DNA from: a virus
Taxonomy: Duplodnaviria > Heunggongvirae > Uroviricota > Caudoviricetes
Strand: one strand, 5' to 3'
Virus record (IMG/VR): IMGVR_UViG_3300011187_000002
Length of the DNA stretch: 64,000 nt
The translations under genes were made by a program, and so were the position numbers. The notes under the pieces were generated by a model. It ran no database searches and had not been told where the DNA came from. It saw only the letters and a list, made by a program, of their open reading frames with translations. Position 1 is the stretch's first letter; the number at the start of each line of letters is the position of its first letter. Of this stretch, positions 13,938-62,369 are shown in pieces.

Positions 13938-13948
13938 AGGGGATAAGT

Positions 13949-14031: not shown

Positions 14032-14038
14032 TTAAAAG

Positions 14039-14299: not shown

Positions 14300-14303
14300 C
14301 TCA

Positions 14304-14377: not shown

Positions 14378-14420
14378 GTGCTTTGGGGACAACAACAGAA
14401 TACCTGTTGCTCATTCCCGA

Positions 14421-15822: not shown

Positions 15823-15836
15823 ACTGTCTCCTAAAG

Positions 15837-15924: not shown

Positions 15925-15959
15925 ATACATCTTGATACTATCAGATACGTATCGCTACG

Positions 15960-16810: not shown

Positions 16811-16826
16811 AATTGCCTACCCTAAA

Positions 16827-16899
16827 AGCCCGGAGCCGGATTCGAACCGGCGACCTTTTCGTTACGAATGAAATGCTCTGCCAACTGAGCTATCCGGGC
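16827..16899 (-). tRNA. tRNA-Thr(CGU)
   Basis: 73 nt; GCCCGGA acceptor, D-arm GCUCAGUUGGCAGAGC, anticodon loop UUCGUAA, T-loop UUCGAAU. Confidence 0.8.
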
Positions 16900-17441: not shown

Positions 17442-17453
17442 GCGGTCCTCGAT

Positions 17454-18192
17454 TCAGGCGGAATTGCGGGCGCTTTCGATGAACTGTTCCGGGTTGCGAA
17501 GCCGGTAATTCAACACGACCTCACGACGCCTTTTGCCGTCAATGACGACCTTGTTGCTCGCAAGCACACCCTCTTTGTTGAGGGTACAGATGACGCTGGT
17601 GATGGTCCCTTCGGGGATCGTATAGTCCATCATCCGGTGCAACTCACGGTTGGTCAGGTCGCAGACCCCGTGGGTCTTGTTCTCATCGCAATAGTTCTGG
17701 ATGAAAGCGTAGACCTGACGCTCACGAGGACAGAGATCGTCGCCTTCGATGAACTTGGCCTTGCTTTCTTTCGAAAACAATTGACCCGAACGGGCGTCGT
17801 CGAGGACCACGACACGTGAACCTTCGGCATCTTCGGGCGCAACCAGACCGCGCACCTGTTCGTCGAAGTCCCGGAATGACGACCGGAAATCGCTGTACGT
17901 GGCTTGAAAGTCACGCACGTTGGACTCGTGCTGGTCGAGCTTCTTTTCGAGCTGCCCAGCCATGCGCTGAAGAGCATCTTCGCGTGCCACAAGGCTCTTT
18001 TCCCGACGATCGAGATTGCTTTCCTTTTGGGACAATTCGTTTGCACGCTTGTCCAAATGGCCCTTGCGACGGTCGAGGCTCCGCTCACGTTCCTCCAACG
18101 GGGCGAACACGTCGTCGGCACCGTCGTTGAGGAACTCCATGAACCGCTGCTGAATGTTCGTGAACATCGACTCTTGTTTCTGTGACGACATC
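17454..18192 (-). CDS. coiled-coil plus C-terminal winged-helix-like protein (paralog B)
   Basis: start chosen at ATG (MSSQKQES...) with AAGAGAGG Shine-Dalgarno; C-terminal ...TSVICTLNKEGVLASNKVVIDGKRRREVVLNYRLRNPEQF matches paralog A; ORF-track N-extension would overlap tRNA-Arg. Confidence 0.5.
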
Positions 18193-18255
18193 TGTACCTC
18201 TCTTGTAGTCATAAGTATCGTAAGGGTTCGTCGTCTCACCGCTAGATAGCGGTAG

Positions 18256-18330
18256 CACGCCCGGCAGGATTCGAACCTGCGACCCGGAGGGTAGAAACCT
18301 CCTGCTCTGTCCTGACTGAGCCACGGGCGC
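18256..18330 (-). tRNA. tRNA-Arg(UCU)
   Basis: 75 nt; GCGCCCG acceptor, D-arm GCUCAGUCAGGACAGAGC, anticodon loop UUUCUAC, T-loop UUCGAAU. Confidence 0.8.
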
Positions 18331-46897: not shown

Positions 46898-47742
46898 AGA
46901 TCACTAAGACCGTGATCGCTAACTTCAACTGCTGGTTCAACTTTTTGCCGCTTTATCTCCGCCTTTTCCACATCGTACTCAAACACGACCTCCGTCTGTG
47001 ACAACGGCAGGTCTCGGAGCTTCGCTTTAGCCTCCGTCGTATCCACGCCGTACTTATCATGAAAACGTTTCAGCCGGGAGTACGTCCGCATCCGGTCGTG
47101 TGTATGTAAAATTTCAACGGGCAACTCGCCCTTGAGCTTTTTGTCCAAAACATCGAGCGGCGGCGAACTGTCCACTGTAATCAATCGCTCTCTATTGTAC
47201 CCATACATACAAATGTCAAGGTCAAATGTTGCTACGATTTCATCCAGCGTCCTACAATGCGTGTAGCACATTATCTGGACGGGATACCCAAAAGCAACGC
47301 CACCCCTATCAAGGGTCGTATCAAATGGGTCGTCTGGTCCAATATGCCCGTTAGCAATCCGGTCACGGCGATCTACTTCATCGATATCAACCACTTCACC
47401 TAACACAACCACAGCATCCTTGTCTTGGATACGAGTGATCGACGTGGAATCTACAACCGACCATACGTGATGAGTCGGGCTGAAATGTGATAGGATCTGA
47501 CTGACTTTGGTGCGAAGTAATTGCCCCACACTGTCTTTCATGAGGCGGGCAAAGACGCCACGCTTGTTACCCCCGGTGATAAATACGTCGATGTCCTTCG
47601 GGTCGTTACCGGTAAGGATGTCCCTTACCGCACCGCCCGCGATCATCATATTGTGTGGACCGGTATCGGGGAAAGCCTTTTGGAGTTCCGTATAAACGAA
47701 ATCCAGCTTCCGAAGACGTGCCAAAGGGGTTGTGATCGTCAT
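46858..47742 (-). CDS. class II nucleotidyltransferase, minimal CCA/poly(A)-polymerase-family head-neck protein
   Basis: 294 aa; motif A MMIAGGAVRDILTGNDPKDIDVFI (GGxVRD...DxD), motif B DRRDRIANG (RRD). Confidence 0.6.
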   Translation of the reverse strand: MTITTPLARLRKLDFVYTELQKAFPDTGPHNMMIAGGAVRDILTGNDPKDIDVFITGGNKRGVFARLMKDSVGQLLRTKVSQILSHFSPTHHVWSVVDSTSITRIQDKDAVVVLGEVVDIDEVDRRDRIANGHIGPDDPFDTTLDRGGVAFGYPVQIMCYTHCRTLDEIVATFDLDICMYGYNRERLITVDSSPPLDVLDKKLKGELPVEILHTHDRMRTYSRLKRFHDKYGVDTTEAKAKLRDLPLSQTEVVFEYDVEKAEIKRQKVEPAVEVSDHGLSDLWASPPDISGLFG

Positions 47743-49739: not shown

Positions 49740-49934
49740 GTCGTCCTTTTTGTCGTCGTCCTTATCCTTTTTCTTCTTGGCTTCCTCTTGCTTTTTCTAG
49801 GCCTGCTCACGCAGTGCCGGGGGCAAGTTTTCCAAGCCGCCAGCCTTTTTGACCTTCTTCTTGCACTTGACGCAATAGCCGGTCTGCTCCAGAACCTTCG
49901 TGCCTCAATTCGGGCATTCGAAAGTGTCCGCAGC
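49740..49934 (-). pseudogene. decayed zinc-ribbon module (copy of upstream gene's CPxC...CxxC knuckle) with TGA at Cys codon and later TAG, no start codon
   Basis: minus-strand -1 frame relative to 269-aa gene reads ...SKVSCGHFECPN*GTKVLEQTGYCVKCKKKVKKAGGLENLPPALREQA*KKQEE..., versus intact ...GSTFTCPHCEGKVLEQTKYCVSCQKKVKK in the gene. Confidence 0.4.
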
Positions 49935-50744
49935 TTACTTTAGAATGGGAAGGAGCGCCCCACGAAGCTCGGGCTTATTGTACGCAAGCCGAATAAGATC
50001 ATCGCGTAGTGCGCTTTCACGCTCTTTCTTGAGCTTGTCCTTGTATTTCTCGTTCATCGCCTCCCACTCCGCCGCTTCCTCGGGCGTCATGTTCTGCGTG
50101 GGATCGGCGGGGACACCTTCTTCGAATCGAGCTCGCCTGCGTGTGGCAGATTTCTTGACCTTCTTTTGGCAACTCACGCAGTATTTTGTCTGCTCGAGCA
50201 CCTTACCCTCACAGTGGGGGCACGTGAATGTGGATCCGTCGGCCTGCCGGTTTCGGCTCGACGCGTTCCTGTCGAAAAGACTCTCATCAAGGGCCTCAAG
50301 GAGTTCGGTGCGCCAGTTTTTGAGATAGTCGACGAACCCAGCTTCAAGATCCGCATAGGACTCATCCCGATAGGCGGGATCCTGTTTCGCGCTGTACGCC
50401 AACTCCTCAGCGATGGCCCCGTAATTTCTACGATCAAGATCCTTGAGGGTTTCCTTTCTCAGATCCCAAGCCCAGGTGAGGAATCCAGGGATGTGCTGAC
50501 TGCTGCCGTAATTTTCGGTGTACCCTTGGTTCCAACCGGCCAAGTGGTCCTCGGCGTCGGAGGTGTCGAAGGCAAAGCGGCGTCTGTGCGTTTCGGTGCG
50601 TCTCATAGCGTAACCCTCGTGGGGGAATTCTGCGATTTTGAAGGTGTCTTTGTTGCCCGCATCCCGGAGAAGGGGCACGAGGTCCTCTCGGATCTCAGGA
50701 TTGTCATAGGCGAGCTTGATGATGGCTTTGCGTAGATCAGTCAT
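49935..50744 (-). CDS. zinc-ribbon protein with N- and C-terminal copies of the 'LAY..PELR..L.PIL' head module
   Basis: 269 aa; N-terminal MTDLRKAIIKLAYDNPEIREDLVPLLRDA, C-terminal DDLIRLAYNKPELRGALLPILK, central CPHC...CVSC. Confidence 0.55.
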   Translation of the reverse strand: MTDLRKAIIKLAYDNPEIREDLVPLLRDAGNKDTFKIAEFPHEGYAMRRTETHRRRFAFDTSDAEDHLAGWNQGYTENYGSSQHIPGFLTWAWDLRKETLKDLDRRNYGAIAEELAYSAKQDPAYRDESYADLEAGFVDYLKNWRTELLEALDESLFDRNASSRNRQADGSTFTCPHCEGKVLEQTKYCVSCQKKVKKSATRRRARFEEGVPADPTQNMTPEEAAEWEAMNEKYKDKLKKERESALRDDLIRLAYNKPELRGALLPILK

Positions 50745-50783
50745 AACAGGGCACCTTCTAGTGTCTAAAAATTACAAGTTGAG

Positions 50784-50801
50784 GGGGCCTTATGGCCCCC
50801 G
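50784..50801 (-). other. stable GC hairpin between sheath gene and downstream gene (terminator-like / mRNA-stabilising)
   Basis: GGGGGCC-ttat-GGCCCCC perfect 7-bp stem; weak T-tract 13 nt after on minus strand. Confidence 0.4.
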
Positions 50802-50811
50802 TTGCATCCGT

Positions 50812-53800
50812 TTACAGTGAGTTCGCGCTTCCGATCGTGTACGTGATCGGGATGTACTTCAAGGGGAAGATCGGTGCGTAAAAAGCACTGACTCGAAGTA
50901 CGGTCGGATCGTTAGGATCCGGCTCGGCACGAACACCCTTGAAGTCTACAATGATCTGCTGCTCCATAAGGGTGTTAAGTAGTCCCGAAAGGGCCAACTC
51001 TACATCCTGCGCCCGGCTGGTGAGGAACTTCAAACCGATGAAACGGTCCAAGCTCTTGCGTGCCTGTTGCTGGACGTGATCCTTAATAGCGACAATCGAA
51101 GGCGTTGACGTGAACCGGTTGGTAACGTCGGTGGTTAGACCGTCACGTACCTGTAGGAACGATCCTCGATCTTCGAGGACTGTAACACCACCGACAGCAA
51201 GCTGGTTCTTTTCGATCTCATCAAGCGATCGGTTAAGGCGTCTGAAACCGACAAGGCGACGTCGTGTTAACGGGGTTGCAACATCGAACTGCGGACTTAC
51301 CAGAACACCGGCAAGTGCCGCCGCTACATACGTTCCGTCGACGATGAAACTCTCATCTTCCCCAAGCTCGTTCGTCAGTGTGACGATTGCGCTATCGGGG
51401 TATACGAGAATCGACCGTCCGCTCTTGAGGCTCTTCGCGATGTTAGCCGCGTCTTCAGGACGAGTGCCCGAAGCAACACCGAAGATGCACCGGCGTTCCT
51501 GACGGAAACGCTGGCTCGACTGGATCTCGGAGTGGTTAACATAGGCACCCATAACATCCGGGTCCGTCGTAAGAGGGACCAAAAGATCAGGGGTAATGCC
51601 CGAAGCCAGCGGCTTTTTAAGCTCTTCCAAAGCGTCCATGAACGCCGCTGTAGGAGCTTGACTGAAGCCGGGGGTCTTTAGTACCTGCTTGCACCCGACG
51701 ATGACCGCACCGTTCAACACAGCGAGGTATGACGCCAAAGTAAGCGGGTTCTCAGCGGACAGCTTGCCGTAATTGCGCTGAATGTCCCGGAACCGAGTGA
51801 ACAGACGGGTTGAGAAATCCGTCTTTTCGTATTCGTAAGAGATATAGTAGAAATCTCCGATTCCCGGCTCGGCACCTGACTTGTTGTAAGTCGTTACTAC
51901 CGCCGTATCACCTACTCCGATATCCGTCGTGTTGTCCACCCGAACTTCAGTGCCCGGAACGGCCTTGACGACTTTGCTGAATCCCGTAGTGAAAGTATCC
52001 GACACATTCAGTGTGAAAGACTGTCCGTCCGTATAATCGCCGGTACCAGCCTCCAAAATCGTGAACCGAAGTCCCGTGTTGGAATCCTGATACGTTTGAC
52101 CAACCACACCTTCGCCGGTTGAGCCGTTGGTAGCCGAAGAGGCCACATCGAACCCATCCCGTGCATCTGTTCCCGCAACCGAATCACCGGCTTCGATCCC
52201 AATGCCCGTATCGTTAAGTGCCGAATCCGTTCCGGTACCAAACGTGAAGGATGCTGTGGAACCTTCCGCGAATGTAGTCAAGCGGAGGTAAGTCCCTTCG
52301 CCCGGCTTTACAAACGTATCAGCAAAGGCCGATGCAATGTACTCGGTAGCAGCCGTTGGGCTGTACCAATCCGAGGCTTGACTGTTCAGAACAGCAGCGA
52401 TCTCGTGGGCTTCAACACGTCGTTGCGAGGCACTATCACCTTCGCTGAATCCAACGTACTGGTTAGCTGTTCCGGCACGAACCTCAATGCGACTCTGGTT
52501 CGTGTCCAAGTTGGAAGTGATGCGGATCTTGTCCGTATCTTCTACGGCCACCGTGGCATCTGTGAGGGCTGCATCCAAAGCGGTCTGGATTGCGCTTACC
52601 GAGGCTAGGCTCGATAGATCCACCGTATGCTCAGTGCCATTTACCGCTACAACAAAGTCTGCGGTAGAAGCGCTATTAAGGGAAGCAAGGTCTGAGGCCG
52701 AGATCGCACCACTAAGAAGCGTAGCTCCTTTGTTAACAGCTTTCTCGGTGCCCTCGGCATACTGGAAGTCAGTGAAACCGAGAGTCCCGTTAGCGTTGCC
52801 GTCCTGCACCCTGATATGGGATGCATCTGCAGGTCCCGAAGGAGACACTTTCGATCGAAGGAGGAAACGCTCATCATCAGCACCCGAATCCCGGTAGCTC
52901 GCTACCAGAATGTTCTCATGCGAATCACCGTTGGTGAAACCAAGGACCGGGTTGGCTGTGCCTGTACCAATCGTAAGGCTTTCAGAAGCCAAGAGTTGGA
53001 CTTTACCCGAACCATCATCAACCGCATGTCCGTCGTTGCCAACAACTGCCGGATCACCTACCGTAAGATTTGCGTTGGTGATCTCGGTGTTAATCAACGT
53101 AGCTAATTGTGCAGCCGTTTGACCTGTCAATGTTCCAAAATCAACATTAACGGGGGTACCGTTCATGTCAAAATCGAAAAGATCATCGGACGCATCGGTG
53201 AATGCAAAGCTCTCCGTTGATGTACCAGTAATAGTAGCATCAGTCGGTACCGACCGCCAGATATCTTCGGCAATGTCAGCACCTGTTCGGCCCAACCCTG
53301 CTGTAAGAGTGACGCTATAGTCCGTACCGTCTACTTCAAACTCAAATACGTCGTTTTCGGTAGCAACGATGTCGTAAGTCGAACCATCGTCATGTCCGTC
53401 AGAAACGGTCACACCGAAAGCAGACTGGTTAAGGTCTACCGTTAGGCTGTTACCGTCTACATCCACATACAAGGTGTCAGACGCATCCGCATAGAGCGAA
53501 TACGGGTCAGCCGCGTAATTCGTGAATACAGCAGGCTCGGCCCCGATCTCTTTGAACGTCACCGTCACGGTTTCGTCCACACCATCAGCGCCCGCAATGA
53601 ATGCGTCCGGGTTAGTTTCCACACCGGAAGGCCACTGGATCGTTTCGTTAACTCCGGTGGTACCGAAATCAACCCCGAAAAGCTGCTCGCCTCTGCGGGA
53701 ACTGTAAACGCTATACTGGCCGGGTGTCGTAGCCGTCGACTGGCTCAAGACTTCGAAGGTTAGTTCATCATCCTGAAGCTGGTTGTACCAATACGTTGCC

Positions 53801-55365
53801 CACACCGTGTGACTCGGCGGAATAGCATCTTCAACCGTCACTTTACGGGTTTCAGGATCAACGTCCACAACCCCTACCGGGCCATTAGCCATCGCCTCGG
53901 ATAGATTGTCTCCGTGGTATACTTTAACAAGATCGGCCCGGTGCGTGCTCACGCCTACCCGGCTGTTCGATACATTGCCAAAGAGCTTCGAGTCTAGAGA
54001 CGTGCTCCGTCCGTTACCCGTCGTAGGTACATTACCTAGTAGGACAGTCGTGTCGGAGGTCACAGCCGGGCTGACCGAACGATCTACAAATCGGCTGGTC
54101 TCTTCGAAATACATCCGGTTATCAACCAGCGATGCACTGATCTGAGTCTCGTCGAAAAACTCCGTGCCTGCCGTATGCAGGCCAGATTCGATCGTTGCCG
54201 CCGAACCCCAGAGAAGTCGACCGTTCTCGTCAACTACGTAATCGTTACCCTCGATATAATCGGTGCGTCCGGGGCTGATACCAACCTGTTGGACTTTCCG
54301 AATTCCCGTATTGGGGAGGTAATCGAAAGTGTCTTGCCACGTGTTGTGGAAATACTCAACGGAAACGACGGCCCCTACAATCGGAGCCTGCTTGAGCGTG
54401 ACCGCTCCGTTAGTTCCATCAACCTCTTCGGGCACTACTTGGTTGCCGTCTACCTTGACCACAACATCGGAAGGATCCGTCGTGATGATCCCGCCGTTAT
54501 CGCCCGTAACAATCGGAGCCTGATAGACGTAAAAGGTACGGTTGCGCGTGGTTTTTTGACCAGCACCAAAACCAAGAACCGAGTTAGCTGTTCCCGAAAG
54601 GATCTCAATCGACCCTTGGGCTTCCAACTGAATTCGGTTATTGCCTTCGTTGTCCGCAGCTACACTGGCGGTAAGACCTACAATGCCCGCAGCGTTAATG
54701 TCGTTGACCACATTGTTGGCGCTCTGAGTCGCACCTGTCGTGAGGGTCACACTTGCGTCTGCACCGTCCACGTTGAGATTCAGGACGTTAGCCCCGGATA
54801 GAATCTCATAGTCTTCGACTTGCGACGAAAGGAGGATTGCGGACTCTTCAGCCACCTGACCCGAAAGGTCATCGGTGAACTTCGTGTCGGTACGGTTGAA
54901 GAAATACGTAACACGCACATCTTCACCGGTCTGTGGCGGCACTTGCAAGGTGATAACACCCCGCGCACCGTCTACAGCAGCAGGCGACACGAGATCGCCA
55001 TCTACGGTTACTGTGATATCGGAAGTATCACTCGTCACTAACCCTTGCCCATTACCCGATACAATCGGATAATTCTGGACACGAAACTTGACTTCACTGC
55101 CAGTCTTCGCACCCAAAACAGGGTTATCAGGGTTAGCATTGTCGAGGATGAACCTGTCGTTCACGTCCTCATTGACAATACGTTGATCTACCGATGCCGA
55201 AGAACCACGCACCAGCTCAAAGTCGTCTTGGGATAGAGTCTCCCGACCGACACCAATAAGAACCGGAATCCGGTTCCCCGTTGGAGGGCCTGACGAACCT
55301 TGCTGAGTTTGTGTTTTTGTGTATACTCCGGGTGGAGCGTAACTATCGAATGGTCCAAATGCCAC
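50812..55365 (-). CDS. tail sheath-like structural protein with multiple inserted repeat domains
   Basis: ORF-track GTG start trimmed to second GTG with TGAGG Shine-Dalgarno; N-terminal MAFGPFDSYAPPGVYTKTQ resembles sheath ...PGVY..E start; C-terminal ...VLRVSAFYAPIFPLKYIPITYTIGS; about 60-aa repeats (VTLT.G...A..I...IN...... GTAN.VLGF) recur at least 5 times. Confidence 0.5.
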   Translation of the reverse strand: MAFGPFDSYAPPGVYTKTQTQQGSSGPPTGNRIPVLIGVGRETLSQDDFELVRGSSASVDQRIVNEDVNDRFILDNANPDNPVLGAKTGSEVKFRVQNYPIVSGNGQGLVTSDTSDITVTVDGDLVSPAAVDGARGVITLQVPPQTGEDVRVTYFFNRTDTKFTDDLSGQVAEESAILLSSQVEDYEILSGANVLNLNVDGADASVTLTTGATQSANNVVNDINAAGIVGLTASVAADNEGNNRIQLEAQGSIEILSGTANSVLGFGAGQKTTRNRTFYVYQAPIVTGDNGGIITTDPSDVVVKVDGNQVVPEEVDGTNGAVTLKQAPIVGAVVSVEYFHNTWQDTFDYLPNTGIRKVQQVGISPGRTDYIEGNDYVVDENGRLLWGSAATIESGLHTAGTEFFDETQISASLVDNRMYFEETSRFVDRSVSPAVTSDTTVLLGNVPTTGNGRSTSLDSKLFGNVSNSRVGVSTHRADLVKVYHGDNLSEAMANGPVGVVDVDPETRKVTVEDAIPPSHTVWATYWYNQLQDDELTFEVLSQSTATTPGQYSVYSSRRGEQLFGVDFGTTGVNETIQWPSGVETNPDAFIAGADGVDETVTVTFKEIGAEPAVFTNYAADPYSLYADASDTLYVDVDGNSLTVDLNQSAFGVTVSDGHDDGSTYDIVATENDVFEFEVDGTDYSVTLTAGLGRTGADIAEDIWRSVPTDATITGTSTESFAFTDASDDLFDFDMNGTPVNVDFGTLTGQTAAQLATLINTEITNANLTVGDPAVVGNDGHAVDDGSGKVQLLASESLTIGTGTANPVLGFTNGDSHENILVASYRDSGADDERFLLRSKVSPSGPADASHIRVQDGNANGTLGFTDFQYAEGTEKAVNKGATLLSGAISASDLASLNSASTADFVVAVNGTEHTVDLSSLASVSAIQTALDAALTDATVAVEDTDKIRITSNLDTNQSRIEVRAGTANQYVGFSEGDSASQRRVEAHEIAAVLNSQASDWYSPTAATEYIASAFADTFVKPGEGTYLRLTTFAEGSTASFTFGTGTDSALNDTGIGIEAGDSVAGTDARDGFDVASSATNGSTGEGVVGQTYQDSNTGLRFTILEAGTGDYTDGQSFTLNVSDTFTTGFSKVVKAVPGTEVRVDNTTDIGVGDTAVVTTYNKSGAEPGIGDFYYISYEYEKTDFSTRLFTRFRDIQRNYGKLSAENPLTLASYLAVLNGAVIVGCKQVLKTPGFSQAPTAAFMDALEELKKPLASGITPDLLVPLTTDPDVMGAYVNHSEIQSSQRFRQERRCIFGVASGTRPEDAANIAKSLKSGRSILVYPDSAIVTLTNELGEDESFIVDGTYVAAALAGVLVSPQFDVATPLTRRRLVGFRRLNRSLDEIEKNQLAVGGVTVLEDRGSFLQVRDGLTTDVTNRFTSTPSIVAIKDHVQQQARKSLDRFIGLKFLTSRAQDVELALSGLLNTLMEQQIIVDFKGVRAEPDPNDPTVLRVSAFYAPIFPLKYIPITYTIGSANSL

Positions 55366-55437
55366 GACGAACCTCACTTATCGCTTAAATGATATGCGAT
55401 CAACCACTGAAGGCAAATATCAATAAAATACCGGGCG

Positions 55438-55875
55438 TCACTGATCAGACGATTCCGATTCACGTTTCTTGTGCTCTCGGATTACCCGATCATTCTCTTT
55501 ATGAAGACGCTGGAACCGTTGCACGTCCTTGTTGGGCATCGGTTCGTAATTGCCTTCCGAGTTGAGACGAAGCGGTACTTGACCTTCGTCTCCGTATTCT
55601 CGTTGAACTTTTCTTTTTCGACTAGTGCGATCCTTAACGTGTTCCCACCTAACTTCCGCATCCCGACCAATTCGCTTATCATGATCTCGGTCAAGCGAAT
55701 CAACCCCGGTGTTTCCCGGAACTTTTCCGTCTCCGAAAGCAAAACCAAAGTCAGAAATCAACCGTTCAGCCTCGGCCCCACAAGAGGAGCACGAAAGCGT
55801 TTTGGGGGGCTCTTTTCTAAAGAGCTTTTCTTGGCGGAGTCCGCAAGAATCACAACCATACTCAAATACTGCCAT
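55438..55875 (-). CDS. FmdB-family zinc-ribbon protein
   Basis: MAVFEYGCDSCGLRQEKLFRK...LSCSSCGAEAERL matches MP.YEYRC..CG..FE.....CP.CG. Confidence 0.55.
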   Translation of the reverse strand: MAVFEYGCDSCGLRQEKLFRKEPPKTLSCSSCGAEAERLISDFGFAFGDGKVPGNTGVDSLDRDHDKRIGRDAEVRWEHVKDRTSRKRKVQREYGDEGQVPLRLNSEGNYEPMPNKDVQRFQRLHKENDRVIREHKKRESESSDQ

Positions 55876-55912
55876 AAGGACCCTCTACTAACCGATACGG
55901 TATATAAACACT

Positions 55913-57709
55913 TTAGCGGATCTTCTCTAAATCACCCTTGGAATCTACCACGTATACCAAACCGAACCCGTTGAGGTTGTTTTCCCCACGTGAGTCCATG
56001 TTATCGGGCCTTTCAAGAAGGATCCCATCGTCAGCTACGGCCCCTCTTGCATCTTGATCAAAGGATTCTGGAGTGATTCTCTTAATAAAGAGCGGCTTCG
56101 CTATGTAAATCTCCCAATCGGTCATAAGGGAAAGTGAGATATTGGCGAGGTAGTAATAGTCGTCACCCGTATCGTCATAAGGCTCTTCGGACTCGCCACC
56201 AAACGACACACTGTTCAGGATGAGGCCCTCTTCGGCCAACCGTTCACGTCGCCATTGCCAGAGGTACATAACTACAAGATCAGCCAACTCGCCCCGCGTC
56301 ATTGAATCACGAGCAATGATATCGAAATCAATCGACATATCGATCTTGCCCCCATACACATCCGCCACATCCGAACGTTTCTCTTCGACAACGACGGCCA
56401 TCGCATCACCGCCCTCTAGCTCTTTTCCGAAAGCCAAAACGACGCCGGGGATCGCTTCATTATTCGAAACCTCCCCGCCACCAATATAATAAGGCCCCCG
56501 AGAAGCAACGGGATAACGATAGTCCGCAATGACCTGTGTTCCCGGCGTAAAGGAACGAAGGAAAGTTATTTCGCCAGTGGAAGCGTCAAGAGTGTAATCC
56601 CCTGCGTCTTCCGTACCCACTGCAAGCGAAGTCACAGCGAACCCGTTCTCAAGCTCTAAGGCAATATCTTCAACGGGGCGTGTGCCTTCCCTCAGATCGT
56701 ATTCGATAGCCGTACCATCCACTTCCAGACGAATGGTGGAACCCTTCGGCACATGGGGCTGAACCATGAGGCCCGTTACTTCCGGTGCTACATACCCGGA
56801 GGTAAAACCAAGCGTTGGGTTGGCTGTGCTGGTTGCATCATCCTCGATGCGCAAACTCTGGGAGGCCGTGATCTCAACCGCATTTGAAACGACGTCTACC
56901 GAATAGAGCGTCCCGTCCAAACCCGTAGCTACGATAGCCGCTTCGATTTCATCCGCCACATCGGCTGCCCCAAAGTTGCCCGCCGTCAGTGTTACGGAGA
57001 CAGACATGCCGTTGATCTCGAAAGCAAAGACGTCGTTGGAACCGCTGATAATCGTGTAGGGCTGTGTATTCGATCCCTTAACCGACACTGGCACATAGCC
57101 TTCGTCGAACCCGAAAAGGATGTTCGTGTTTCCGCCGCCGATGTACAGCGATTGGGCCGCTGTAAGGCGTAGGGCTTTCCCTGTGTGGAGCAAATGGTCG
57201 GGGTAAGCATAGAGGCGGACGCTACCCTCCAGCACCGGAGCATACGCTAGGATAGCCGACGTCTCGGTTCCGGTTTGAAACTCAATGATCGGTTCCTCTA
57301 GAACCGAAAGGAGGGGGTCCACCCAAAACTGAAATTCAGGTACATCACCCGTTGGGGTAATGTCTTCGATCTGGACATAATAGACGCCCGGCTCGGAGGG
57401 GAAATTACCACCATACTCTTCGACGGCGGCAGTGTCCTCACGTACCCATTCAAGGGCGGTACCCCGGTGGTCGTCTACTTTAGCCAACATGATGTACGAA
57501 TACATCGTGCCGATGTAATTGTCGGCGGCCAGTGACATGGGGTTGGCGCTGGCGCTCTGTAGAACGATCCCCTTCTGGGGACGCTCTGAAAACTCATACT
57601 TTTCCCGAATGTGCTTGACAACATCCCGATGCCGTGGGTTTGCATCGAAGCAAAACCTGAGCGTCTCCATAAGACGCTTTTTCACGGCACGTGATAGATA
57701 GTGATACAT
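55913..57709 (-). CDS. virion structural protein sharing repeat modules with the sheath-like protein
   Basis: 598 aa; repeats FEINGMSVSVTLTAGNFGAADVADEIEAAI... and ...TANPTLGFTSGYV as in sheath gene. Confidence 0.5.
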   Translation of the reverse strand: MYHYLSRAVKKRLMETLRFCFDANPRHRDVVKHIREKYEFSERPQKGIVLQSASANPMSLAADNYIGTMYSYIMLAKVDDHRGTALEWVREDTAAVEEYGGNFPSEPGVYYVQIEDITPTGDVPEFQFWVDPLLSVLEEPIIEFQTGTETSAILAYAPVLEGSVRLYAYPDHLLHTGKALRLTAAQSLYIGGGNTNILFGFDEGYVPVSVKGSNTQPYTIISGSNDVFAFEINGMSVSVTLTAGNFGAADVADEIEAAIVATGLDGTLYSVDVVSNAVEITASQSLRIEDDATSTANPTLGFTSGYVAPEVTGLMVQPHVPKGSTIRLEVDGTAIEYDLREGTRPVEDIALELENGFAVTSLAVGTEDAGDYTLDASTGEITFLRSFTPGTQVIADYRYPVASRGPYYIGGGEVSNNEAIPGVVLAFGKELEGGDAMAVVVEEKRSDVADVYGGKIDMSIDFDIIARDSMTRGELADLVVMYLWQWRRERLAEEGLILNSVSFGGESEEPYDDTGDDYYYLANISLSLMTDWEIYIAKPLFIKRITPESFDQDARGAVADDGILLERPDNMDSRGENNLNGFGLVYVVDSKGDLEKIR

Positions 57710-57759
57710 AGCACATCGGCAATATTAGGGTGTCCATTAACTGCCCCCACGAATTCGCT

Positions 57760-58185
57760 TTAAGCTACGAAATCATGGAGATCGTACATCTGGATGATAT
57801 CTTCCACCGCTTTCTCAAGGAGGCGCTTGTCAAGGCCCTGTGCGAACTCGTCAGCCAATTTATCGGTGTCCCGGAAATGGCGTTCAAATTTGCGCAAAAG
57901 AGTACCCGCCCGATCACGAGACTCGACCTCTACGGGAAGATCCCACATACGGGCGATTTGTTCGAACTGCTCACGACTTTCACGGTCCCCCACGTATCCC
58001 ATCAAATTGCTGAGAGCTTCTGTGGCACCGAGCATTTCCCGGACTTGCGACCACTTGCCCCACGGCCCTGATCGGTAGGCTTCACGGGTATTACTTTCCA
58101 GTGCCTTGAGGATAGGTTGGAGGTGTGTGCGAAGCCCCTTTTTCTTGTTCCCCAACTTGATCAACTGGTCTTTAAGGTCGGTCAT
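57760..58185 (-). CDS. hypothetical protein, 'DLKDQLIKLG' head-module paralog
   Basis: 141 aa; MTDLKDQLIKLGNKKKGLRTHLQPILKALE. Confidence 0.5.
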   Translation of the reverse strand: MTDLKDQLIKLGNKKKGLRTHLQPILKALESNTREAYRSGPWGKWSQVREMLGATEALSNLMGYVGDRESREQFEQIARMWDLPVEVESRDRAGTLLRKFERHFRDTDKLADEFAQGLDKRLLEKAVEDIIQMYDLHDFVA

Positions 58186-58215
58186 AAGATACTCTCACAC
58201 GGTTAGAGGGATTAA

Positions 58216-60489
58216 TTAAACATATTCTTGCATGGATTGGACCAACAGTCCCTGAGCCACGGAGGTCATGGGGTCGTCGGCTTGTCGAATTTCACTGATC
58301 TCAATTGGAAAACGCTTGCGCTGTTTTTCGAATACTTCCTTGAACAAGTCGAGGAATCCACCGGCCAACGATGTTCCCCCGGACACGATGATGGGGATAG
58401 CTTCTTTGAGTTCCGTGTCATTCTGTGTGTTCTTGAACTGCTTGCCGATATTGTCGAGGGCGTATTTGATCAGTGACTTGTAATAGACAACCAGCGCTTC
58501 CTCTTCGCGGCTTTGAGGGTTCGTGAGGTCTATCCCTTTCTCTTTGATGGAACAGAGGCGGGAAGCGGTCGAACCCACAGCCTTCGAAGCGTTCTGGTCA
58601 ATCCAGTCGCCGCAGTTGTGTACGACAGCACCCCACGTCGCGAAAGCATGATGGGATTCTCCAATGGAAATATCATACACATCATCGTCATAGGGGATAG
58701 TCTCAACGGAAAGCACTTTCCTTTCCGCAAAATGCCCAGAGGGGTACCGCAAAGAGTTGCCCTCCTTGGAAATAAGGGCTCCCAACACGGAAACCGCTAC
58801 CGCATCTCTGATACGAACTGTGTAAGAATCCTTACGGCCCTCGATCTGAACTCCTCTTGAGTTTACACCACCTTGCCTTGGATCTCGTTTCTCGATTGTA
58901 TGCCAGATGCCAAATCTATTCAGAAGGTGACTCATGCTGCGGACAAGAGTCTCAGACGTGTTATAAAACTCGAAACCTTTTTCCGTCCGTGACCCGTCAC
59001 TATCTAATAGACCCTCTAGTACCCCTACTGCCATCTGATCGGGAATTTCGTGTACAGGAAGCGGGAGGATCTTATCCCCCACCCCATTATAACATTTACT
59101 CTTGAGATGGTCTGCAATCTTATGGTATTCAAGGTTGATAAGATCCATTTCAACCTCAGTCCTAGACACCACAGATGGAAACCGACCAAAGAGGTCGTTA
59201 ATAACATCTTGGTATTTCTGGACCAGTTGTGCATCCTTCCGGTTAAACGCCAAACGAACTCGACCCCCAGAATTGCCCTGTCCGTTCTTATAAAGACAGG
59301 TGCTGCCATCCCCTAAGAACATCCCCAAAAATCTACCCAAGTTGCGAGACTTCGTAACCGTGACATTTTGACCATCTTCCCGGCAAAAATAGTACGAGCT
59401 GTGGTTCCCACGGTAGGGGATACGAGGTACCCCTACGATGTCCCCCTCCCGAGCATCCTGTGCTGCTACCCACTCCCACTGAGCGCCACGGCGAACACTA
59501 ATTTTGTGATCACCTGTAACATCAACCGGTGCAAAGGGCAGACCTTCTAGTTGGAGTTGATAAAGTTCTTCACGATGCCCGTTGTTAAATACTTCTAGGA
59601 CTTCGGTATATGCTCCGTCCTGACCTAATACCAAGTCACCGGGTCGGATTCCCGAAACTGGTTTCATACCAGAAGGCGTATCAATCGGGAAATCTTTAGA
59701 CAGGCATCGGGCCAACGAAAACTCCATGATCGGCATGGTCATGTACGAAAGGGCGCAGTTGACCATCCCGGAACCGAAGCTAATGCCGATTCCGCTAAAA
59801 TTGTCGCTAGCGCATTCCGAATAAATGATCGCCATCGCCTCGTTGCCCGAAATAGGGTCGTATCCTAGCTCGTCGAGGATCTTTGCGAACACAGCCTCGT
59901 GGTACACGACGTCTTGACCCGGCATATCCAGAGGGGCTGCAGGGATCGAATAGTAGCAAACTTCACCCTCCTCTTGGGGCTTGCCTACCACCTGTTCGAT
60001 CAAAATCGACAGGACTTCGAGCGCATCAATTTCCGAAGAGGAAATCAGACCCTGTGACAAGGGACGCCGAGCTTCCCGCTTAAACAGGTTGGCTGTTTCG
60101 ATTGCGGGGTCGCCCAAAATCAGAATGCGATCATCATATTCGATGAAACTAACACCCGACAGCTTGAGCATCTTCTTGGCGTCGATATCGAGGTCAAGGA
60201 AAGCATCACGCACACGTTTCGTCTCAACCGACGTACCGATCTTACGAGCGGACACAAGGTTCATCGTACCAATGTCCAACCCGATACCCATCTCTGGCTT
60301 TTTATCTTCACTCATATCGTCACTCCGATTTTCACTTGACTCCAAAGGTTTATCCAAACCGTACTCCTTTGCCCGTTTACTAATCGTGGATGCGCTGCAC
60401 CCATACTTGTCGGCAATATCAGCATACGACAAACCGGCTTCGAGGTGATATCGAAGGTCGTCACGTGGTATGTCTATGCGCTTTGCCAT
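58216..60489 (-). CDS. actin-like (MreB/ParM-fold) ATPase with N-terminal HTH, interrupted by an intein
   Basis: phosphate-1 MGIGLDIGTMNLVSAR, phosphate-2 GIGISFGSGMVNCAL, adenosine motif PIIVSGGTSLAGGFLDLF; N-terminal HTH LSYADIADKYGCSASTISKRAKEYGL; 364-aa intein inside. Confidence 0.65.
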   Translation of the reverse strand: MAKRIDIPRDDLRYHLEAGLSYADIADKYGCSASTISKRAKEYGLDKPLESSENRSDDMSEDKKPEMGIGLDIGTMNLVSARKIGTSVETKRVRDAFLDLDIDAKKMLKLSGVSFIEYDDRILILGDPAIETANLFKREARRPLSQGLISSSEIDALEVLSILIEQVVGKPQEEGEVCYYSIPAAPLDMPGQDVVYHEAVFAKILDELGYDPISGNEAMAIIYSECASDNFSGIGISFGSGMVNCALSYMTMPIMEFSLARCLSKDFPIDTPSGMKPVSGIRPGDLVLGQDGAYTEVLEVFNNGHREELYQLQLEGLPFAPVDVTGDHKISVRRGAQWEWVAAQDAREGDIVGVPRIPYRGNHSSYYFCREDGQNVTVTKSRNLGRFLGMFLGDGSTCLYKNGQGNSGGRVRLAFNRKDAQLVQKYQDVINDLFGRFPSVVSRTEVEMDLINLEYHKIADHLKSKCYNGVGDKILPLPVHEIPDQMAVGVLEGLLDSDGSRTEKGFEFYNTSETLVRSMSHLLNRFGIWHTIEKRDPRQGGVNSRGVQIEGRKDSYTVRIRDAVAVSVLGALISKEGNSLRYPSGHFAERKVLSVETIPYDDDVYDISIGESHHAFATWGAVVHNCGDWIDQNASKAVGSTASRLCSIKEKGIDLTNPQSREEEALVVYYKSLIKYALDNIGKQFKNTQNDTELKEAIPIIVSGGTSLAGGFLDLFKEVFEKQRKRFPIEISEIRQADDPMTSVAQGLLVQSMQEYV
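58615..59706 (-). mobile_element. intein with LAGLIDADG homing-endonuclease domain (aa 262-625 of host protein)
   Basis: starts C (FSLAR|CLSKDFPIDT), block B VTGDHKIS, LAGLIDADG blocks LGMFLGDGS and GLLDSDGS, ends GAVVHN|C. Confidence 0.7.
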
Positions 60490-60495
60490 GATTGG

Positions 60496-60867
60496 TTAAA
60501 AGTTGACCGGGGTCTTGATACCTAGAAGGTCCGCAATCTTAGCTACCTGATTGCGCAACATGTTCGCATCGCTAGGCGGGCGTCCCAGCATATTGTTGAG
60601 CCTGTTGAACGCTTTCTCTTCGCCACCGTCCAACTGAAGCCGATCGGAAAAATGCTTAAAAATGTCTTTGAGCATATCCGCCGTCTGTTCATCCCCACCC
60701 TTACGAGCCTGTGATCTGAGCTTCCCAGAAGCGCGGAGATCCACGATATCCCGCATCAGATTGAGTTTGGATGTTCGCTGTAGTTCGGCCAAAACCGGAC
60801 GGATATGTGGGCGAAGTTCCGGGTTGGTGGACCCGAGGCGAATGAGTTGATCTTTAAGGTCTGCCAT
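60496..60867 (-). CDS. hypothetical protein, 'DLKDQLIKLG' head-module paralog
   Basis: 123 aa; MADLKDQLIRLGSTNPELRPHIRPVLAELQ. Confidence 0.5.
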   Translation of the reverse strand: MADLKDQLIRLGSTNPELRPHIRPVLAELQRTSKLNLMRDIVDLRASGKLRSQARKGGDEQTADMLKDIFKHFSDRLQLDGGEEKAFNRLNNMLGRPPSDANMLRNQVAKIADLLGIKTPVNF

Positions 60868-60935: not shown

Positions 60936-62369
60936 TCACCGCTTGCGATACAGAACCTTGACTGCTTCGGTAAGGTTCCGAGGGCTTTTCCGCAGGCCCG
61001 GCTGCCGAAGCAAAACGTCGCGAGCCACTTCCATGAGGTTGCGGATTTCCCGGCCTTGGAGGTCAAATTCACCAATCAACGCTTGGGTATCCATCTGGCG
61101 GCCCGGCTGTTTCAGGAGGTCAACGAACTTGTCCGCCTCCCGTGCTTCCATCTCTAGGGCAACCGTGCGCAACCGGGCCATCTGAGCGTCGTCTAGGAAA
61201 CGAAGCCGTGTGTTCAACGGGAGGCCGATATCCATCATGTCGAAAAGGAACAGGACCTTCGCATCCCGACCCGCCCAATTCACAAGGGTTTTACGGAAAG
61301 GCTTATTGCTTTCGAGCATCTCTTTGACCACATCGAGCAGGCCCAGATTCTTGAGCACTTTCAGGGTGGTCTTCGACTGGCTCATCTGTAAAATGTCATT
61401 GACGAGGATCTCGCTAATGGCATTTTGCGGGGCCTTCTTGAGCTTATCAGCGTTTCGACGAATAGCCTTGGCGACAGGTGGATCAATCTTGAAGCCGTAC
61501 TTGACCAAGAACTTCACCGCCCGCAACATCCGGGTGGGGTCATCCGAAAATGTCTTGTCCGGGTCGCTAGGACACTTCATAACGCCTTCTTGAAGGTCAT
61601 CCACGCCACAACCCGTGAGGTCAATAATCTCTGCCTTATCCGGCCCGTGAGCAAGCTCTGAGAGCTGCCACAGCAACGTATTGAACGTGAACTCACGCCG
61701 TTTGATATCCTCTTCGATAGTCGAAGGCTCTACCATGTGTGGCTTGTATCCTTTCCCCTCGTCACCGCCGTAGGACTCTTTGCGGGCATTGGCGATTTCG
61801 ATAACTTCGCCTTGGAGGTCCGCGCCGTCCACTACCCACGATTCATTGACGGACAGGATAGCTACGCCGTACTGATTCGTCTGGAGGCTGGTCTTAGCCG
61901 GAATCGCCCCCTGTAACTTCTTGGCGAACCATGCCGAGTCCTTTCCCCCAAGCGCTACCGAATCTATCACGACGTCGATATCTTTGATGGGCCGGTCGAT
62001 GATGAAATTGCGCACAGCACCGCCTACTACATATACGTGTTCCCCAACCCCTAGCCGCTTGGCGACTTTGGATAGAAACCGCATCAGGGCGATCGACTGT
62101 TCATGTGCTTGTTCGGAAATCACGGTACGTCTCGAAGCTAAACGGGTCTGTTCCCGGTAAAAGAACGACCCATCACGGAACGTTAAATCACCCATGTTAA
62201 CGAGGGATTCGATAATATCCCCCATCAGGTCAGGTGCATCGGTCATAGCTTCTACCAAATCATCATATTGGTTGAAAGCCTGTTCCATAACATTCGATGC
62301 GGTACGATTACGTCCCGAGGCTAGAGATAGGAGGTAGCGTCGTGCGACCTTTTTAGATAGATCAATCAT
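60936..62369 (-). CDS. class II tRNA nucleotidyltransferase (CCA-adding enzyme / poly(A) polymerase family)
   Basis: 477 aa; motif A VYVVGGAVRNFIIDRPIKDIDVVI, motif B DIKRREFTFNTL. Confidence 0.7.
   Translation of the reverse strand: MIDLSKKVARRYLLSLASGRNRTASNVMEQAFNQYDDLVEAMTDAPDLMGDIIESLVNMGDLTFRDGSFFYREQTRLASRRTVISEQAHEQSIALMRFLSKVAKRLGVGEHVYVVGGAVRNFIIDRPIKDIDVVIDSVALGGKDSAWFAKKLQGAIPAKTSLQTNQYGVAILSVNESWVVDGADLQGEVIEIANARKESYGGDEGKGYKPHMVEPSTIEEDIKRREFTFNTLLWQLSELAHGPDKAEIIDLTGCGVDDLQEGVMKCPSDPDKTFSDDPTRMLRAVKFLVKYGFKIDPPVAKAIRRNADKLKKAPQNAISEILVNDILQMSQSKTTLKVLKNLGLLDVVKEMLESNKPFRKTLVNWAGRDAKVLFLFDMMDIGLPLNTRLRFLDDAQMARLRTVALEMEAREADKFVDLLKQPGRQMDTQALIGEFDLQGREIRNLMEVARDVLLRQPGLRKSPRNLTEAVKVLYRKR

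What the first reader, a model, noticed from the sequence alone, without database searches (positions are those of the whole stretch)
49935..60867. Local paralog family sharing a ~30-aa 'DLKDQLIKLG…PELR..L.PIL' head module
Four copies of the same N-terminal module occur within 11 kb. Three are at N-termini: MTDLKDQLIKLGNKKKGLRTHLQPIL (57760..58185), MADLKDQLIRLGSTNPELRPHIRPVL (60496..60867) and MTDLRKAIIKLAYDNPEIREDLVPLL (49935..50744). The fourth is at the C-terminus of the 269-aa protein (DDLIRLAYNKPELRGALLPILK). Two of the genes directly flank the intein-containing actin-like gene, and the third sits beside the sheath gene. The downstream parts diverge completely. This looks like a modular family with a shared interaction or targeting head and variable tails, a pattern seen in phage anti-defence and host-takeover families, but I do not recognise the module.
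Basis: seen in the sequence. Interest (0 to 1): 0.6.

Follow-up and report, generated by a model that had tools for sequence, protein, structure and literature searches.

The report
Shared head tag of huge-phage proteins
The repeated ~27-residue segment is real: it is an undescribed helical-hairpin mini-domain, found almost only in huge bacteriophages, that sits mostly at the very start of dozens of otherwise unrelated small proteins per genome and most likely acts as a common docking or address tag.

Summary
Four copies of a 26-28-aa module lie at the stated coordinates. Leave-one-out profiles recover each copy at 19-32 bits against about 6 bits for the best unrelated six-frame hit.

The family is much larger than "local". 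The same phage has at least three more module genes just beyond the window edge. An exhaustive HMMER search finds 4,399 protein clusters with the module, carrying 1-5 copies each. A degenerate DNA pattern hits 58 sites on viral contigs, mostly 50-485 kb long, but only 3 MAG contigs in 596 Gb of cellular genomes.

No Pfam, NCBIfam, PHROG, PADLOC or PDB entry covers the module. AlphaFold2 predicts a very confident helix-turn-helix. In a less biased viral sample 76% of copies sit directly after the start Met of small proteins (median 154 aa) with unrelated tails.

Within one 485-kb phage, 11 copies are 78% identical in protein, yet 54% of the identical residues use different codons. That indicates selection on the peptide. 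Tails are shuffled between architectures among relatives.

Adjacency to the actin gene is not conserved. The best reading is a common docking/address tag; the partner is unknown.

The parts
60496..60867 (-). Gene B, 123 aa: N-terminal module plus a helical tail
   Evidence: ORF. A 99% identical copy occurs in IMG/VR contig L005. The tail is 48% identical to residues 81-169 of the L006 173-aa protein. AF2 gives pLDDT 88-98 over residues 1-30 and 58-76 over the tail.
60781..60864 (-). Module copy in B (aa 2-29: ADLKDQLIRLGSTNPELRPHIRPVLAEL)
   Evidence: 58.6 bits against the family profile; 31.9 bits in the leave-one-out test.
57760..58185 (-). Gene A, 141 aa: N-terminal module plus tail
   Evidence: ORF. 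A 99% identical copy occurs in L007. The tail is 54% identical (E=2e-33) to residues 215-321 of the L006 321-aa protein, in which the module is internal.
58099..58182 (-). Module copy in A (aa 2-29: TDLKDQLIKLGNKKKGLRTHLQPILKAL), the most degenerate copy: KKKG replaces NPE
   Evidence: 48.5 bits; 30.2 bits in the leave-one-out test.
49935..50744 (-). Gene C, 269 aa: module, lineage-specific body, CxxC..CxxC zinc ribbon, charged linker, module
   Evidence: ORF, with sub-parts mapped. A 99% identical protein, P0201, lies on a 73-kb contig. The locus is hypervariable among near-identical relatives.
50658..50741 (-). N-terminal module of C (aa 2-29)
   Evidence: 47.6 bits; 19.2 bits in the leave-one-out test.
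50226..50639 (-). Body domain of C (aa 36-173), restricted to this phage lineage
   Evidence: Only 3 database hits. It is absent in variants L007 and P0089 and duplicated in L003.
50169..50222 (-). Zinc ribbon of C (CPHCEGKVLEQTKYCVSC)
   Evidence: Weak zinc-ribbon Pfam hits. It is a recurrent companion unit of the module in other proteins.
50016..50129 (-). Charged linker unit (RFEEGVPADPTQNMTPEEAAEWEAMNEKYKDKLKKERE), which recurs with the module elsewhere
   Evidence: The same unit is seen in L002, L006, L007, P0033, P0051 and P0076. It is present in 13-18 of 148 multi-copy proteins.
49938..50015 (-). C-terminal module of C (aa 244-269), ending exactly at the stop codon
   Evidence: 45.1 bits; 29.2 bits in the leave-one-out test.
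49740..49934 (-). Silenced 3' extension of C: a second zinc ribbon plus a K/D/E tail, intact in relative L007
   Evidence: Over about 420 nt it differs from L007 at only three positions, and each converts a sense codon to a stop.
58216..60489 (-). Neighbour rather than part of the family: HTH-Volactin-type actin with a LAGLIDADG intein, flanked by B and A
   Evidence: Pfam Volactin 1.2e-70, LAGLIDADG_3, Intein_splicing and HTH_23. The L006 orthologue has no intein.
50812..55377 (-). Neighbour: 1,521-aa tail sheath directly upstream of C
   Evidence: phrog_2839 tail sheath, 1.4e-31, over the C-terminal 350 aa. It is 41% identical to LR745208.1 and 33% identical to the annotated sheath of Tunturiibacter phage Tunturi_5.

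Best explanation
The module is an autonomous helix-turn-helix hairpin of about 27 residues, with the consensus S-L-R-x-x-L-I-R-L-A-H-x-N-P-E-L-R-x-x-L-L-P-L-L-K-x-A. It works as a portable protein-protein docking or address tag.

Proposed mechanism:
1. Each phage of this group attaches the tag to many unrelated, mostly small, accessory proteins, usually at the extreme N-terminus.
2. The hairpin is too small to be stable alone, so it folds against a partner surface. Its conserved hydrophobic stripe and its invariant Arg and Pro residues form that interface.
3. All carriers in one phage therefore go to the same phage-specified partner or assembly. That shared target is why the copies within one genome keep a genome-specific consensus.
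4. Proteins with 2-5 copies separated by charged linkers act as multivalent versions.
5. New carriers arise by recombination that joins the tag to new tails.

What is shown: the module's existence, its distribution, its positional bias, the predicted hairpin, purifying selection on the peptide, and tail shuffling.

What is inferred: that it binds a partner at all, and that the partner is shared. The destination (virion interior, an intracellular assembly, or other copies of the module) is unknown.
For: - **Portable unit on unrelated proteins.** The tails of A-F and of the LR745208.1 carriers show no similarity. Partner domains in 123 multi-copy proteins are diverse and mostly unknown.
- **Tails are exchanged between architectures and genomic slots**.
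- **Strong terminal bias.** 65 of 86 modules in 427 kb of viral stretches lie within 4 residues of the start Met, with a median carrier of 154 aa. In LR745208.1 this holds for 10 of 11.
- **Selection acts on the peptide, not the DNA.** The 11 copies in LR745208.1 are 78% identical in protein, yet 54% of identical residues use different codons. In the window phage the figures are 48% and 70%.
- **Genome-specific consensus.** LR745208.1 copies read TLRSKLIRLAHENPALRPHLLPLLKEA. In the window phage, copies B, D, E and F and the four tandem genes of related contig L026 read LK.QLIKLG....LRPHIRPVLAEL. Mean identity between the two genomes is about 33%.
- **Interface-like conservation.** A11 is conserved at 94%, P15 at 96%, R18 at 98% and P23 at 95% over 337 instances.
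- **Predicted structure.** AF2 gives pLDDT 88-98 for the hairpin and much lower confidence for B's tail.
- **Virus-restricted.** 58 pattern matches on viral contigs against 3 MAG contigs in 596 Gb of cellular genomes. Sampled contexts look like huge phages.
Against: - No partner has been identified, and no binding has been shown or even modelled.
- About a quarter of copies are internal or C-terminal, and many proteins carry several copies. A simple one-tag-one-cargo signal does not need that.
- In B the second helix runs straight on into the tail (H16-46), so the module may be part of the fold of some carriers.
- Within-genome uniformity would also follow from homotypic binding.
Confidence: 0.45

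Rival explanations
1. Homotypic sticker. Modules bind one another, two hairpins forming a four-helix bundle. Multi-module proteins with charged disordered linkers would then be scaffolds of a network or condensate, and single-module proteins would be clients recruited into it.
For: - Many proteins carry 2-5 modules separated by long D/E/K-rich linkers, often with one copy at each end.
- The natural two-module mini-protein P0005 is predicted as four helices with pLDDT 82-89 and pTM 0.60 from an alignment of only three sequences.
- Uniformity of copies within a genome is what mutual compatibility would require.
Against: - pTM 0.60 is only suggestive, and inter-hairpin contacts could not be inspected.
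- There is no significant structural analogue (best Foldseek E=3.7).
- Most carriers in the less biased sample have a single N-terminal copy (68 of 77 ORFs).
Confidence: 0.2
2. Actin-filament adaptor. The module is the filament-binding peptide of adaptors for the adjacent Volactin-type actin, as in ParR/ParM or AlpA/AlpC, with the tails binding cargo.
For: - In the window, B and A flank the actin gene with gaps of 6 and 30 nt.
- In relatives L002, L004 and L006 the gene after the actin also carries the module.
- L014 has module genes about 4 kb from a Volactin gene.
Against: - In LR745208.1 (actin 55% identical) the actin is followed directly by the 598-aa homologue. None of its 11 dispersed modules lies within 13 kb, and the A, B and X domains have no homologue there.
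- B is missing between the CCA-enzyme gene and the actin gene in L006, and its tail sits after the sheath instead.
- Module genes occur in regions with no actin gene nearby.
Confidence: 0.05
3. Quality-control tag. The module is a terminal degron or chaperone-recognition tag read by the phage's own Lon protease or Cpn60 chaperonin, giving timed turnover or folding of accessory proteins.
For: - The window encodes a full-length Lon (18743..21100; Lon_C 1.9e-85 plus the substrate-binding N-domain) and a Cpn60 (45200..46897).
- The module sits mostly at protein termini.
- Cpn60 is also present in LR745208.1 and L006, and Cpn10 in L025.
Against: - LR745208.1 has 11 modules but no Lon homologue at E<=1e-5.
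- Degrons are usually unstructured and poorly conserved, whereas this is a confidently predicted, highly conserved hairpin.
- Chaperonins are common in huge phages generally (own knowledge), so this co-occurrence carries little weight.
Confidence: 0.07
4. No shared function. The module is simply the slowest-evolving remnant of an old, rapidly diverging paralogue family, or a recombination joint retained because it promotes module exchange.
For: - Module genes occur in tandem arrays that suggest duplication (L026, four in a row).
- The C locus is rearranged at module and linker boundaries among near-identical genomes.
Against: - DNA identity is low: half or more of identical residues use different codons, so the module is a poor substrate for homologous recombination.
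- Tails differ in length, composition and predicted class and include unrelated Pfam domains.
- The module occurs at N-terminal, internal and C-terminal positions.
- Near-invariant Arg and Pro residues across thousands of clusters indicate direct constraint.
Confidence: 0.1

Closest known systems
Capsid-targeting sequence of T4 internal proteins, and N-terminal propeptides of phiKZ-type head proteins (own knowledge)
   Same: A short N-terminal peptide shared by otherwise unrelated proteins of large myoviruses, serving as an address for one destination.
   Different: - The CTS is about 10 aa and is removed by the prohead protease; no cleavage is shown here.
- An L-x-E-like motif at the module's end is not conserved (E at position 27 in only 18% of copies).
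- The module is a 27-aa hairpin that also occurs internally, C-terminally and in multiple copies.
- There is no sequence similarity.
Encapsulation peptides of bacterial microcompartments and cargo-loading peptides of encapsulins (own knowledge)
   Same: Short amphipathic helical tags at the N- or C-terminus, or between domains, of diverse cargo. They are joined by linkers and act by docking to a common shell.
   Different: - Those are single helices or short extended peptides of about 10-20 aa, not a conserved helix-turn-helix.
- No shell or encapsulin gene was identified here.
- The present module is restricted to huge phages.
N-terminal marker domains of polymorphic cargo of contractile injection systems: MIX/FIX/RIX of T6SS, and N-terminal packing signals of PVC/eCIS payloads (own knowledge)
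   Same: A conserved N-terminal marker on a large set of proteins with unrelated C-terminal parts, in an entity that has a contractile sheath.
   Different: There is no sequence or profile similarity, the sizes differ, and loading into the tail or capsid is untested.
HEAT / LRV-type alpha-helical repeat units
   Same: A helical hairpin of 24-30 aa with a pattern resembling L..LA..(D/N)P.(L/V)R..L.P.L. A PDB profile search gives only weak echoes to a designed helical repeat protein and to transportin HEAT repeats. LRV and HEAT domains co-occur in a few carriers.
   Different: - The copies are single or widely spaced, not a contiguous solenoid.
- No Pfam HEAT or LRV model hits the module in the window proteins or in 121 of 123 multi-copy carriers.
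- The PDB matches are insignificant per domain (2-4 bits).
ParR/ParM- and AlpA/AlpC-type adaptor-actin pairs (own knowledge)
   Same: Small genes adjacent to an actin-like gene, with a short helical peptide that could bind the filament.
   Different: Adjacency is confined to the window's immediate clade, and the module is dispersed genome-wide elsewhere.

Membership tests
Any curated protein family (Pfam-A, NCBIfam, PHROGs, PADLOC) | A significant match of the module region to a library profile | tested here: not met
   - A and B have no Pfam, PHROG or NCBIfam family; their only PADLOC line is a weak Csn2 hit on A's tail (E 0.015).
- C has only sub-threshold zinc-ribbon and DUF7173 hits, and these are not reproduced in its relatives.
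- No family recurs over the module in 123 multi-copy carriers.
- NCBIfam and PADLOC give nothing for the other module carriers tested.
Solved structures (PDB) | Sequence-profile or fold similarity to a solved chain | tested here: not met
   The best profile-search hit is a designed helical repeat with per-domain scores of 2-4 bits. The best Foldseek E-values are 3.7 and 7.7.
HEAT/LRV helical repeats | Tandem array of contiguous repeat units forming a solenoid | tested here: not met
   Copies are single, or separated by 30-300 residues of charged linker or other domains.
HEAT/LRV helical repeats | Match to the Pfam HEAT, HEAT_2, LRV or LRV_2 models | tested here: not met
   Only 2 of 123 carriers match LRV and 1 matches HEAT. 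The window proteins match none.
T4-type capsid targeting sequence / cleavable head propeptide | N-terminal position on proteins of unrelated function | tested here: met
   65 of 86 modules lie within 4 aa of the start Met, and 10 of 11 in LR745208.1.
T4-type capsid targeting sequence / cleavable head propeptide | A conserved prohead-protease cleavage motif directly after the tag, and presence of carriers in virions | tested here: inconclusive
   L-x-E follows the module in B, E and most LR745208.1 copies, but E at that position is only 18% family-wide. Virion proteomics is not available.
Actin-like segregation adaptor (ParR/AlpA type) | Conserved genetic linkage to the actin-like ATPase gene | tested here: not met
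   Linkage holds in the window, L002, L004 and L006. It is absent in LR745208.1, where the actin is followed directly by the 598-aa homologue and the nearest module is 13 kb away.
Actin-like segregation adaptor (ParR/AlpA type) | Direct binding of the peptide to the filament | not testable with these tools
   No complex prediction or experiment was available.
Microcompartment / encapsulin targeting peptides | Co-occurrence with shell or encapsulin genes | not tested
   No shell-like family turned up in the genes annotated, but the genomes were not searched systematically.
   - The signature is specific, with four positions conserved at 94% or more.
- It is rare: 4,399 of 1.84 billion representatives.
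- The LIRLAH-type pattern hits 3 MAG contigs in 596 Gb of cellular genomes against 58 sites on viral contigs.

The most novel reading that the evidence does not exclude
The module is a virus-encoded protein-sorting signal peculiar to a large group of huge phages. It would be a linear, transferable address tag that sends dozens of unrelated small proteins per genome to a single destination. That destination could be the capsid or tail for co-injection with the DNA, or a phage-built intracellular assembly in which the multi-module, charged-linker proteins are the scaffold and single-module proteins the clients.
Probability: 0.3. Interest if true: 0.85.

Novelty: new variant of a known kind. Interest (0 to 1): 0.62.

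Why it matters
Huge phages are known almost only from metagenomes, and most of their genes have no annotation. A single 27-residue tag that marks ten or more otherwise unrelated dark-matter proteins per genome, and more than 4,000 protein clusters overall, gives a handle on a whole class of them at once.

If the tag is an address label, it defines a cargo set. It would also offer a transferable peptide for directing proteins in infected cells or into virions, and would point to an unknown partner or compartment in huge-phage biology.

Even on the most modest reading, it is a new domain family that would improve annotation of huge-phage genomes and serve as a near-specific marker for them in metagenomes.

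Tried and rejected
- **DUF7173 / pXO2-72.** Weak Pfam hits on C (E 0.004-0.016) are below threshold and were not reproduced in relatives' proteins. The weak DUF4404 hits on two X-domain proteins are also below threshold.
- **Actin-adaptor idea.** Linkage is not conserved.
- **Phage-Lon degron idea.** LR745208.1 has no Lon.
- **DNA-level repeat or gene conversion.** Rejected on codon divergence, and similarity starts at the ATG with no shared upstream sequence in the window.
- **Stop-codon recoding as the explanation for in-frame stops at the C locus.** All three stop types are involved, no suppressor tRNA is among the six tRNAs in the window, and the window's genes read normally under code 11.
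- **Fold searches.** Both AF2 models gave no significant match.
- **Literature searches.** Motif strings, and huge phages combined with actin, returned nothing relevant. The Volactin papers concern haloarchaea only.
- **Automatic back-translation of the family alignment.** It failed and was replaced by a hand-made degenerate pattern that samples only the LIRLAH subtype.
- **First profile search with only the four window copies.** It found just two fragments, because the word index needs shared 5-mers.
- **Cultured phages.** No cultured phage in the INPHARED collection carries either subtype.


Full report
**1.
The three minus-strand ORFs are present as described: A at 57760..58185, B at 60496..60867 and C at 49935..50744. 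Each begins with the module, and C ends with a fourth copy.

Pairwise ungapped BLOSUM62 scores between copies are 43-78. The maximum over 20,000 shuffles was 37. Profiles built from any three copies recover the fourth at 19-32 bits, whereas the best unrelated fragment in the six-frame translation of the 64-kb window scores about 6 bits. A later 33-sequence family profile still finds exactly four copies in the window.

The remaining parts of the proteins are not detectably similar to one another. None of A, B or C matches a Pfam or PHROG family apart from weak zinc-ribbon hits in C.

**2.
Near-identical contigs from other samples extend past the window's right edge. They show three more small genes of the same phage with the module at or near the N-terminus (D, E and F). 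That makes at least six genes and seven modules in about 21 kb.

Comparison with relatives shows true domain shuffling:
- **A's tail.** In the more divergent L006 it is the C-terminus of a 321-aa protein whose module is internal (54% identity, E=2e-33).
- **B's tail.** In L006 it sits in the slot after the sheath, behind a C-type module and a charged linker (48% identity). No B gene lies between the CCA-enzyme gene and the actin gene there.
- **The A slot in L002/L004.** It holds a 258-aa protein that shares L006's N-terminal "X" domain and internal module but has a different tail.
- **The C locus.** It differs among genomes that are otherwise about 99% identical. The forms are: module-body-Zn-linker-module (window); module-linker-module-body-Zn-linker-module (L002); the same with a duplicated body (L003); and a 135-aa linker-module-Zn-tail form with no body (L007).

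The true repeat unit at the C locus is about 70 aa: a charged linker, RFEEG.PADPT.NM.PE.A.EW...KYKDKFK, followed by the module.

**3. Global distribution.**
- A profile of 13 copies retrieved 40 small metagenomic proteins, nearly all beginning M..LRxxLIRLAHxxPELRPHLLPILK.
- An exhaustive HMMER search of 1.84 billion cluster representatives with a 31-position profile found 4,399 proteins at E<=1e-3 and 311 at E<=1e-10. The top hits carry 2-5 copies in proteins of 63-1,780 aa.
- A degenerate DNA pattern for LIRLAH..P.LR..LLP carries about 42 bits. It matched 3 contigs in 596 Gb representing 185,579 bacterial and archaeal species, all of them uncultured MAG contigs. In IMG/VR it matched 58 sites in 51 stretches, mostly on contigs of 50-485 kb and often several per contig.
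- Sampled contexts look like huge phages: chaperonins, homing endonucleases, Ro60/TROVE, MoxR/CobT-like genes, aminoacyl-tRNA synthetase, giant ORFs and mostly unannotated genes, on contigs up to 530 kb.
- The closest deposited genome is LR745208.1, an uncultured 485-kb phage with the sheath 41% and the Volactin 55% identical. No cultured phage in the collection carries the module.

**4. Position and carriers.**
In 427 kb of viral stretches there are 86 distinct modules. Of these, 65 lie within four residues of a start Met, 4 are at the C-terminus and 17 are internal or undetermined. Proteins with an N-terminal module have a median length of 154 aa, ranging from 38 to 692.

LR745208.1, scanned whole, has 11 copies at 35-52 bits, while shuffled and reversed controls peak at 10.6 bits. 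The copies are dispersed from 15 kb to 433 kb, and ten of them directly follow the start Met. None of the ten carriers scanned has a Pfam domain.

Among 123 multi-copy carriers no Pfam family covers the module. The partner domains are scattered: LRV, zinc ribbons, pentapeptide, GNAT, WGR, RelA_SpoT, HEAT and DUF7717. NCBIfam, PADLOC and PDB give nothing.

**5. Structure and constraint.**
AF2 models B's module with pLDDT 88-98: helix 2-14, a break at residue 15, then a second helix. The tail has pLDDT 58-76. A natural two-module mini-protein is modelled as two hairpins with pTM 0.60. Neither model has a significant structural neighbour.

Over 337 instances the consensus is xSLRxxLIRLAHxNPELRxxLLPLLKxA, with A11 at 94%, P15 at 96%, R18 at 98% and P23 at 95%. 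NPE is a typical helix N-cap (own knowledge).

The 11 copies of LR745208.1 are 78% identical in protein, although 54% of identical residues use different codons. In the window phage the figures are 48% and 70%. The similarity is therefore maintained by selection on the peptide and not by gene conversion. The consensus is genome-specific, with about 33% identity between the two phages.

**6. Links to the actin and sheath genes.**
In the window's immediate clade the gene after the actin always carries a module. In LR745208.1 the actin gene is followed directly by the homologue of the 598-aa protein, the nearest module is 13 kb away, and the A, B and X domains have no homologue. The module genes behave as accessory insertions between conserved core genes (CCA enzyme, actin, 598-aa protein, Zn_ribbon_8 protein, sheath, Cpn60), not as conserved partners of the actin.

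**7. Mechanism.**
The best-supported reading is a portable docking or address hairpin that brings many unrelated proteins to one partner or assembly (confidence about 0.45). The existence, portability, positional bias, predicted fold and peptide-level selection are shown. Binding itself, and the identity of the partner, are inferred.

The main rival is homotypic association, with multi-module proteins acting as scaffolds (0.2). It is favoured by the beads-on-a-string proteins and the P0005 model.

The actin-adaptor model (0.05) and the Lon/chaperonin-tag model (0.07) were tested by co-occurrence and weakened. A "mere remnant of descent or recombination joint" reading (0.1) fits poorly with the codon divergence, the variable positions and the near-invariant residues.

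**8. Comparison with known systems.**
In logic it resembles the T4 capsid-targeting sequence, microcompartment and encapsulin targeting peptides, and the N-terminal markers of T6SS/eCIS cargo. In shape it resembles a single HEAT/LRV-like hairpin. It is not a member of any of these by sequence, profile or fold, and several defining features were either tested and not met or could not be tested (see the membership table).

**9. Novelty and limits.**
Within the libraries and literature available here the module is undescribed.

The limits are these:
- The DNA pattern samples only one subtype.
- The top-150 list of the exhaustive search is biased towards multi-copy proteins.
- The AF2 alignments were shallow.
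- No complex prediction could be run.
- Host and environment were not determined.

Noticed in passing
window 49797..49937 (minus strand), compared with L007 8080..8420 and L001 340..760: Downstream of C's stop the window is identical to relative L007 over about 420 nt except for three substitutions. All three convert sense codons to stops in C's frame: GAA>TAA (C's own stop), TGC>TGA and GAG>TAG. L001, from another sample, shares them. In L007 the frame is open and encodes a second zinc ribbon and a K/D/E tail. All are G:C>T:A changes. Three of three differences being nonsense is not what neutral decay predicts.
   Followed up: partly
L001 ~313..315, L002 8260..8262, L003 1192..1194 (equivalent to window C codon 184, GAG): Contigs from three samples carry an in-frame TAG inside C's zinc ribbon (CPHCEGKVL*QTKYCVSC), where the window has Glu. 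The 85 codons after it are fully conserved. This suggests either read-through or a very recent, spreading truncation. No suppressor tRNA is among the six tRNAs in the window.
   Followed up: partly
window 58216..60489 (-): The actin-like protein belongs to the Volactin family (Pfam 1.2e-70), so far described in haloarchaea. It carries an N-terminal HTH domain and a LAGLIDADG intein inserted at ...SLAR|C...HN|CGDWID. The L006 orthologue (399 aa) has the HTH domain but no intein. LR745208.1 and LR756511.1 also encode homologues.
   Followed up: partly
window 50812..55377 (-); L002 3570..7445; L006 5471..9706: The tail sheath is gigantic and variable in length (1,521, 1,291 and 1,411 aa). Only the C-terminal ~350 aa match a sheath profile. 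The middle consists of repeated, probably Ig-like, insertions.
   Followed up: no
window 18743..21100 (-) and 45200..46897 (-): The phage encodes a complete Lon protease (substrate-binding N-domain, AAA+, S16 protease; phrog_15585 at 960 bits) and a Cpn60 chaperonin. LR745208.1 has the chaperonin but no Lon.
   Followed up: partly
window 41428..43407 (-): A 659-aa protein with calcium-binding EGF domains (EGF_CA 5.8e-15, three stretches), a domain type typical of animal extracellular proteins.
   Followed up: no
window 13391..18330 (-): A cluster of six tRNA genes: Leu-TAA, Leu-CAA, Thr-TGT, His-GTG, Thr-CGT and Arg-TCT. There are also two PolyA_pol-type nucleotidyltransferases, at 60936..62369 and 46858..47742.
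   Followed up: no
LR745208.1, upstream of module genes at 351543, 20732, 390948, 226068 and 275658 (CTATC), with near-variants CTATG/CTATA at 31283 and 15269: Five of ten module genes have CTATC, four of them at a fixed 13-14 nt before the ATG, against 19 of 520 crude genes (binomial p about 1.4e-5). Several are preceded by a stem-loop and lack a Shine-Dalgarno sequence. This suggests separate, co-regulated transcription units. The motif is not seen upstream of the window's module genes.
   Followed up: partly
P0051, P0071, P0076, P0089, L007 7873..8280: Other short units recur with the module in a beads-on-a-string fashion: the acidic linker RFEEGKPADPTKNMSPEDAxxW..KDKFK, a GCEKLPEGPMRDNC unit, a zinc ribbon F.CP.CG.KVLE.TGYC.KC.KKVKK, and K/D/E-rich tails.
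   Followed up: partly
L003 19..1191: The lineage-specific body domain of C is tandemly duplicated, with the junction at ...GSTF|KIAEF.... It is absent in other variants, where DTF is followed directly by the zinc ribbon. It therefore behaves like a cassette bounded by (D/S)TF. An assembly artefact is not excluded.
   Followed up: no
L006 2667..3092: The tail of one module protein in the relative matches Pfam DUF7717 (1.7e-12, above the cutoff). It is one of the few carriers with any annotated domain.
   Followed up: no
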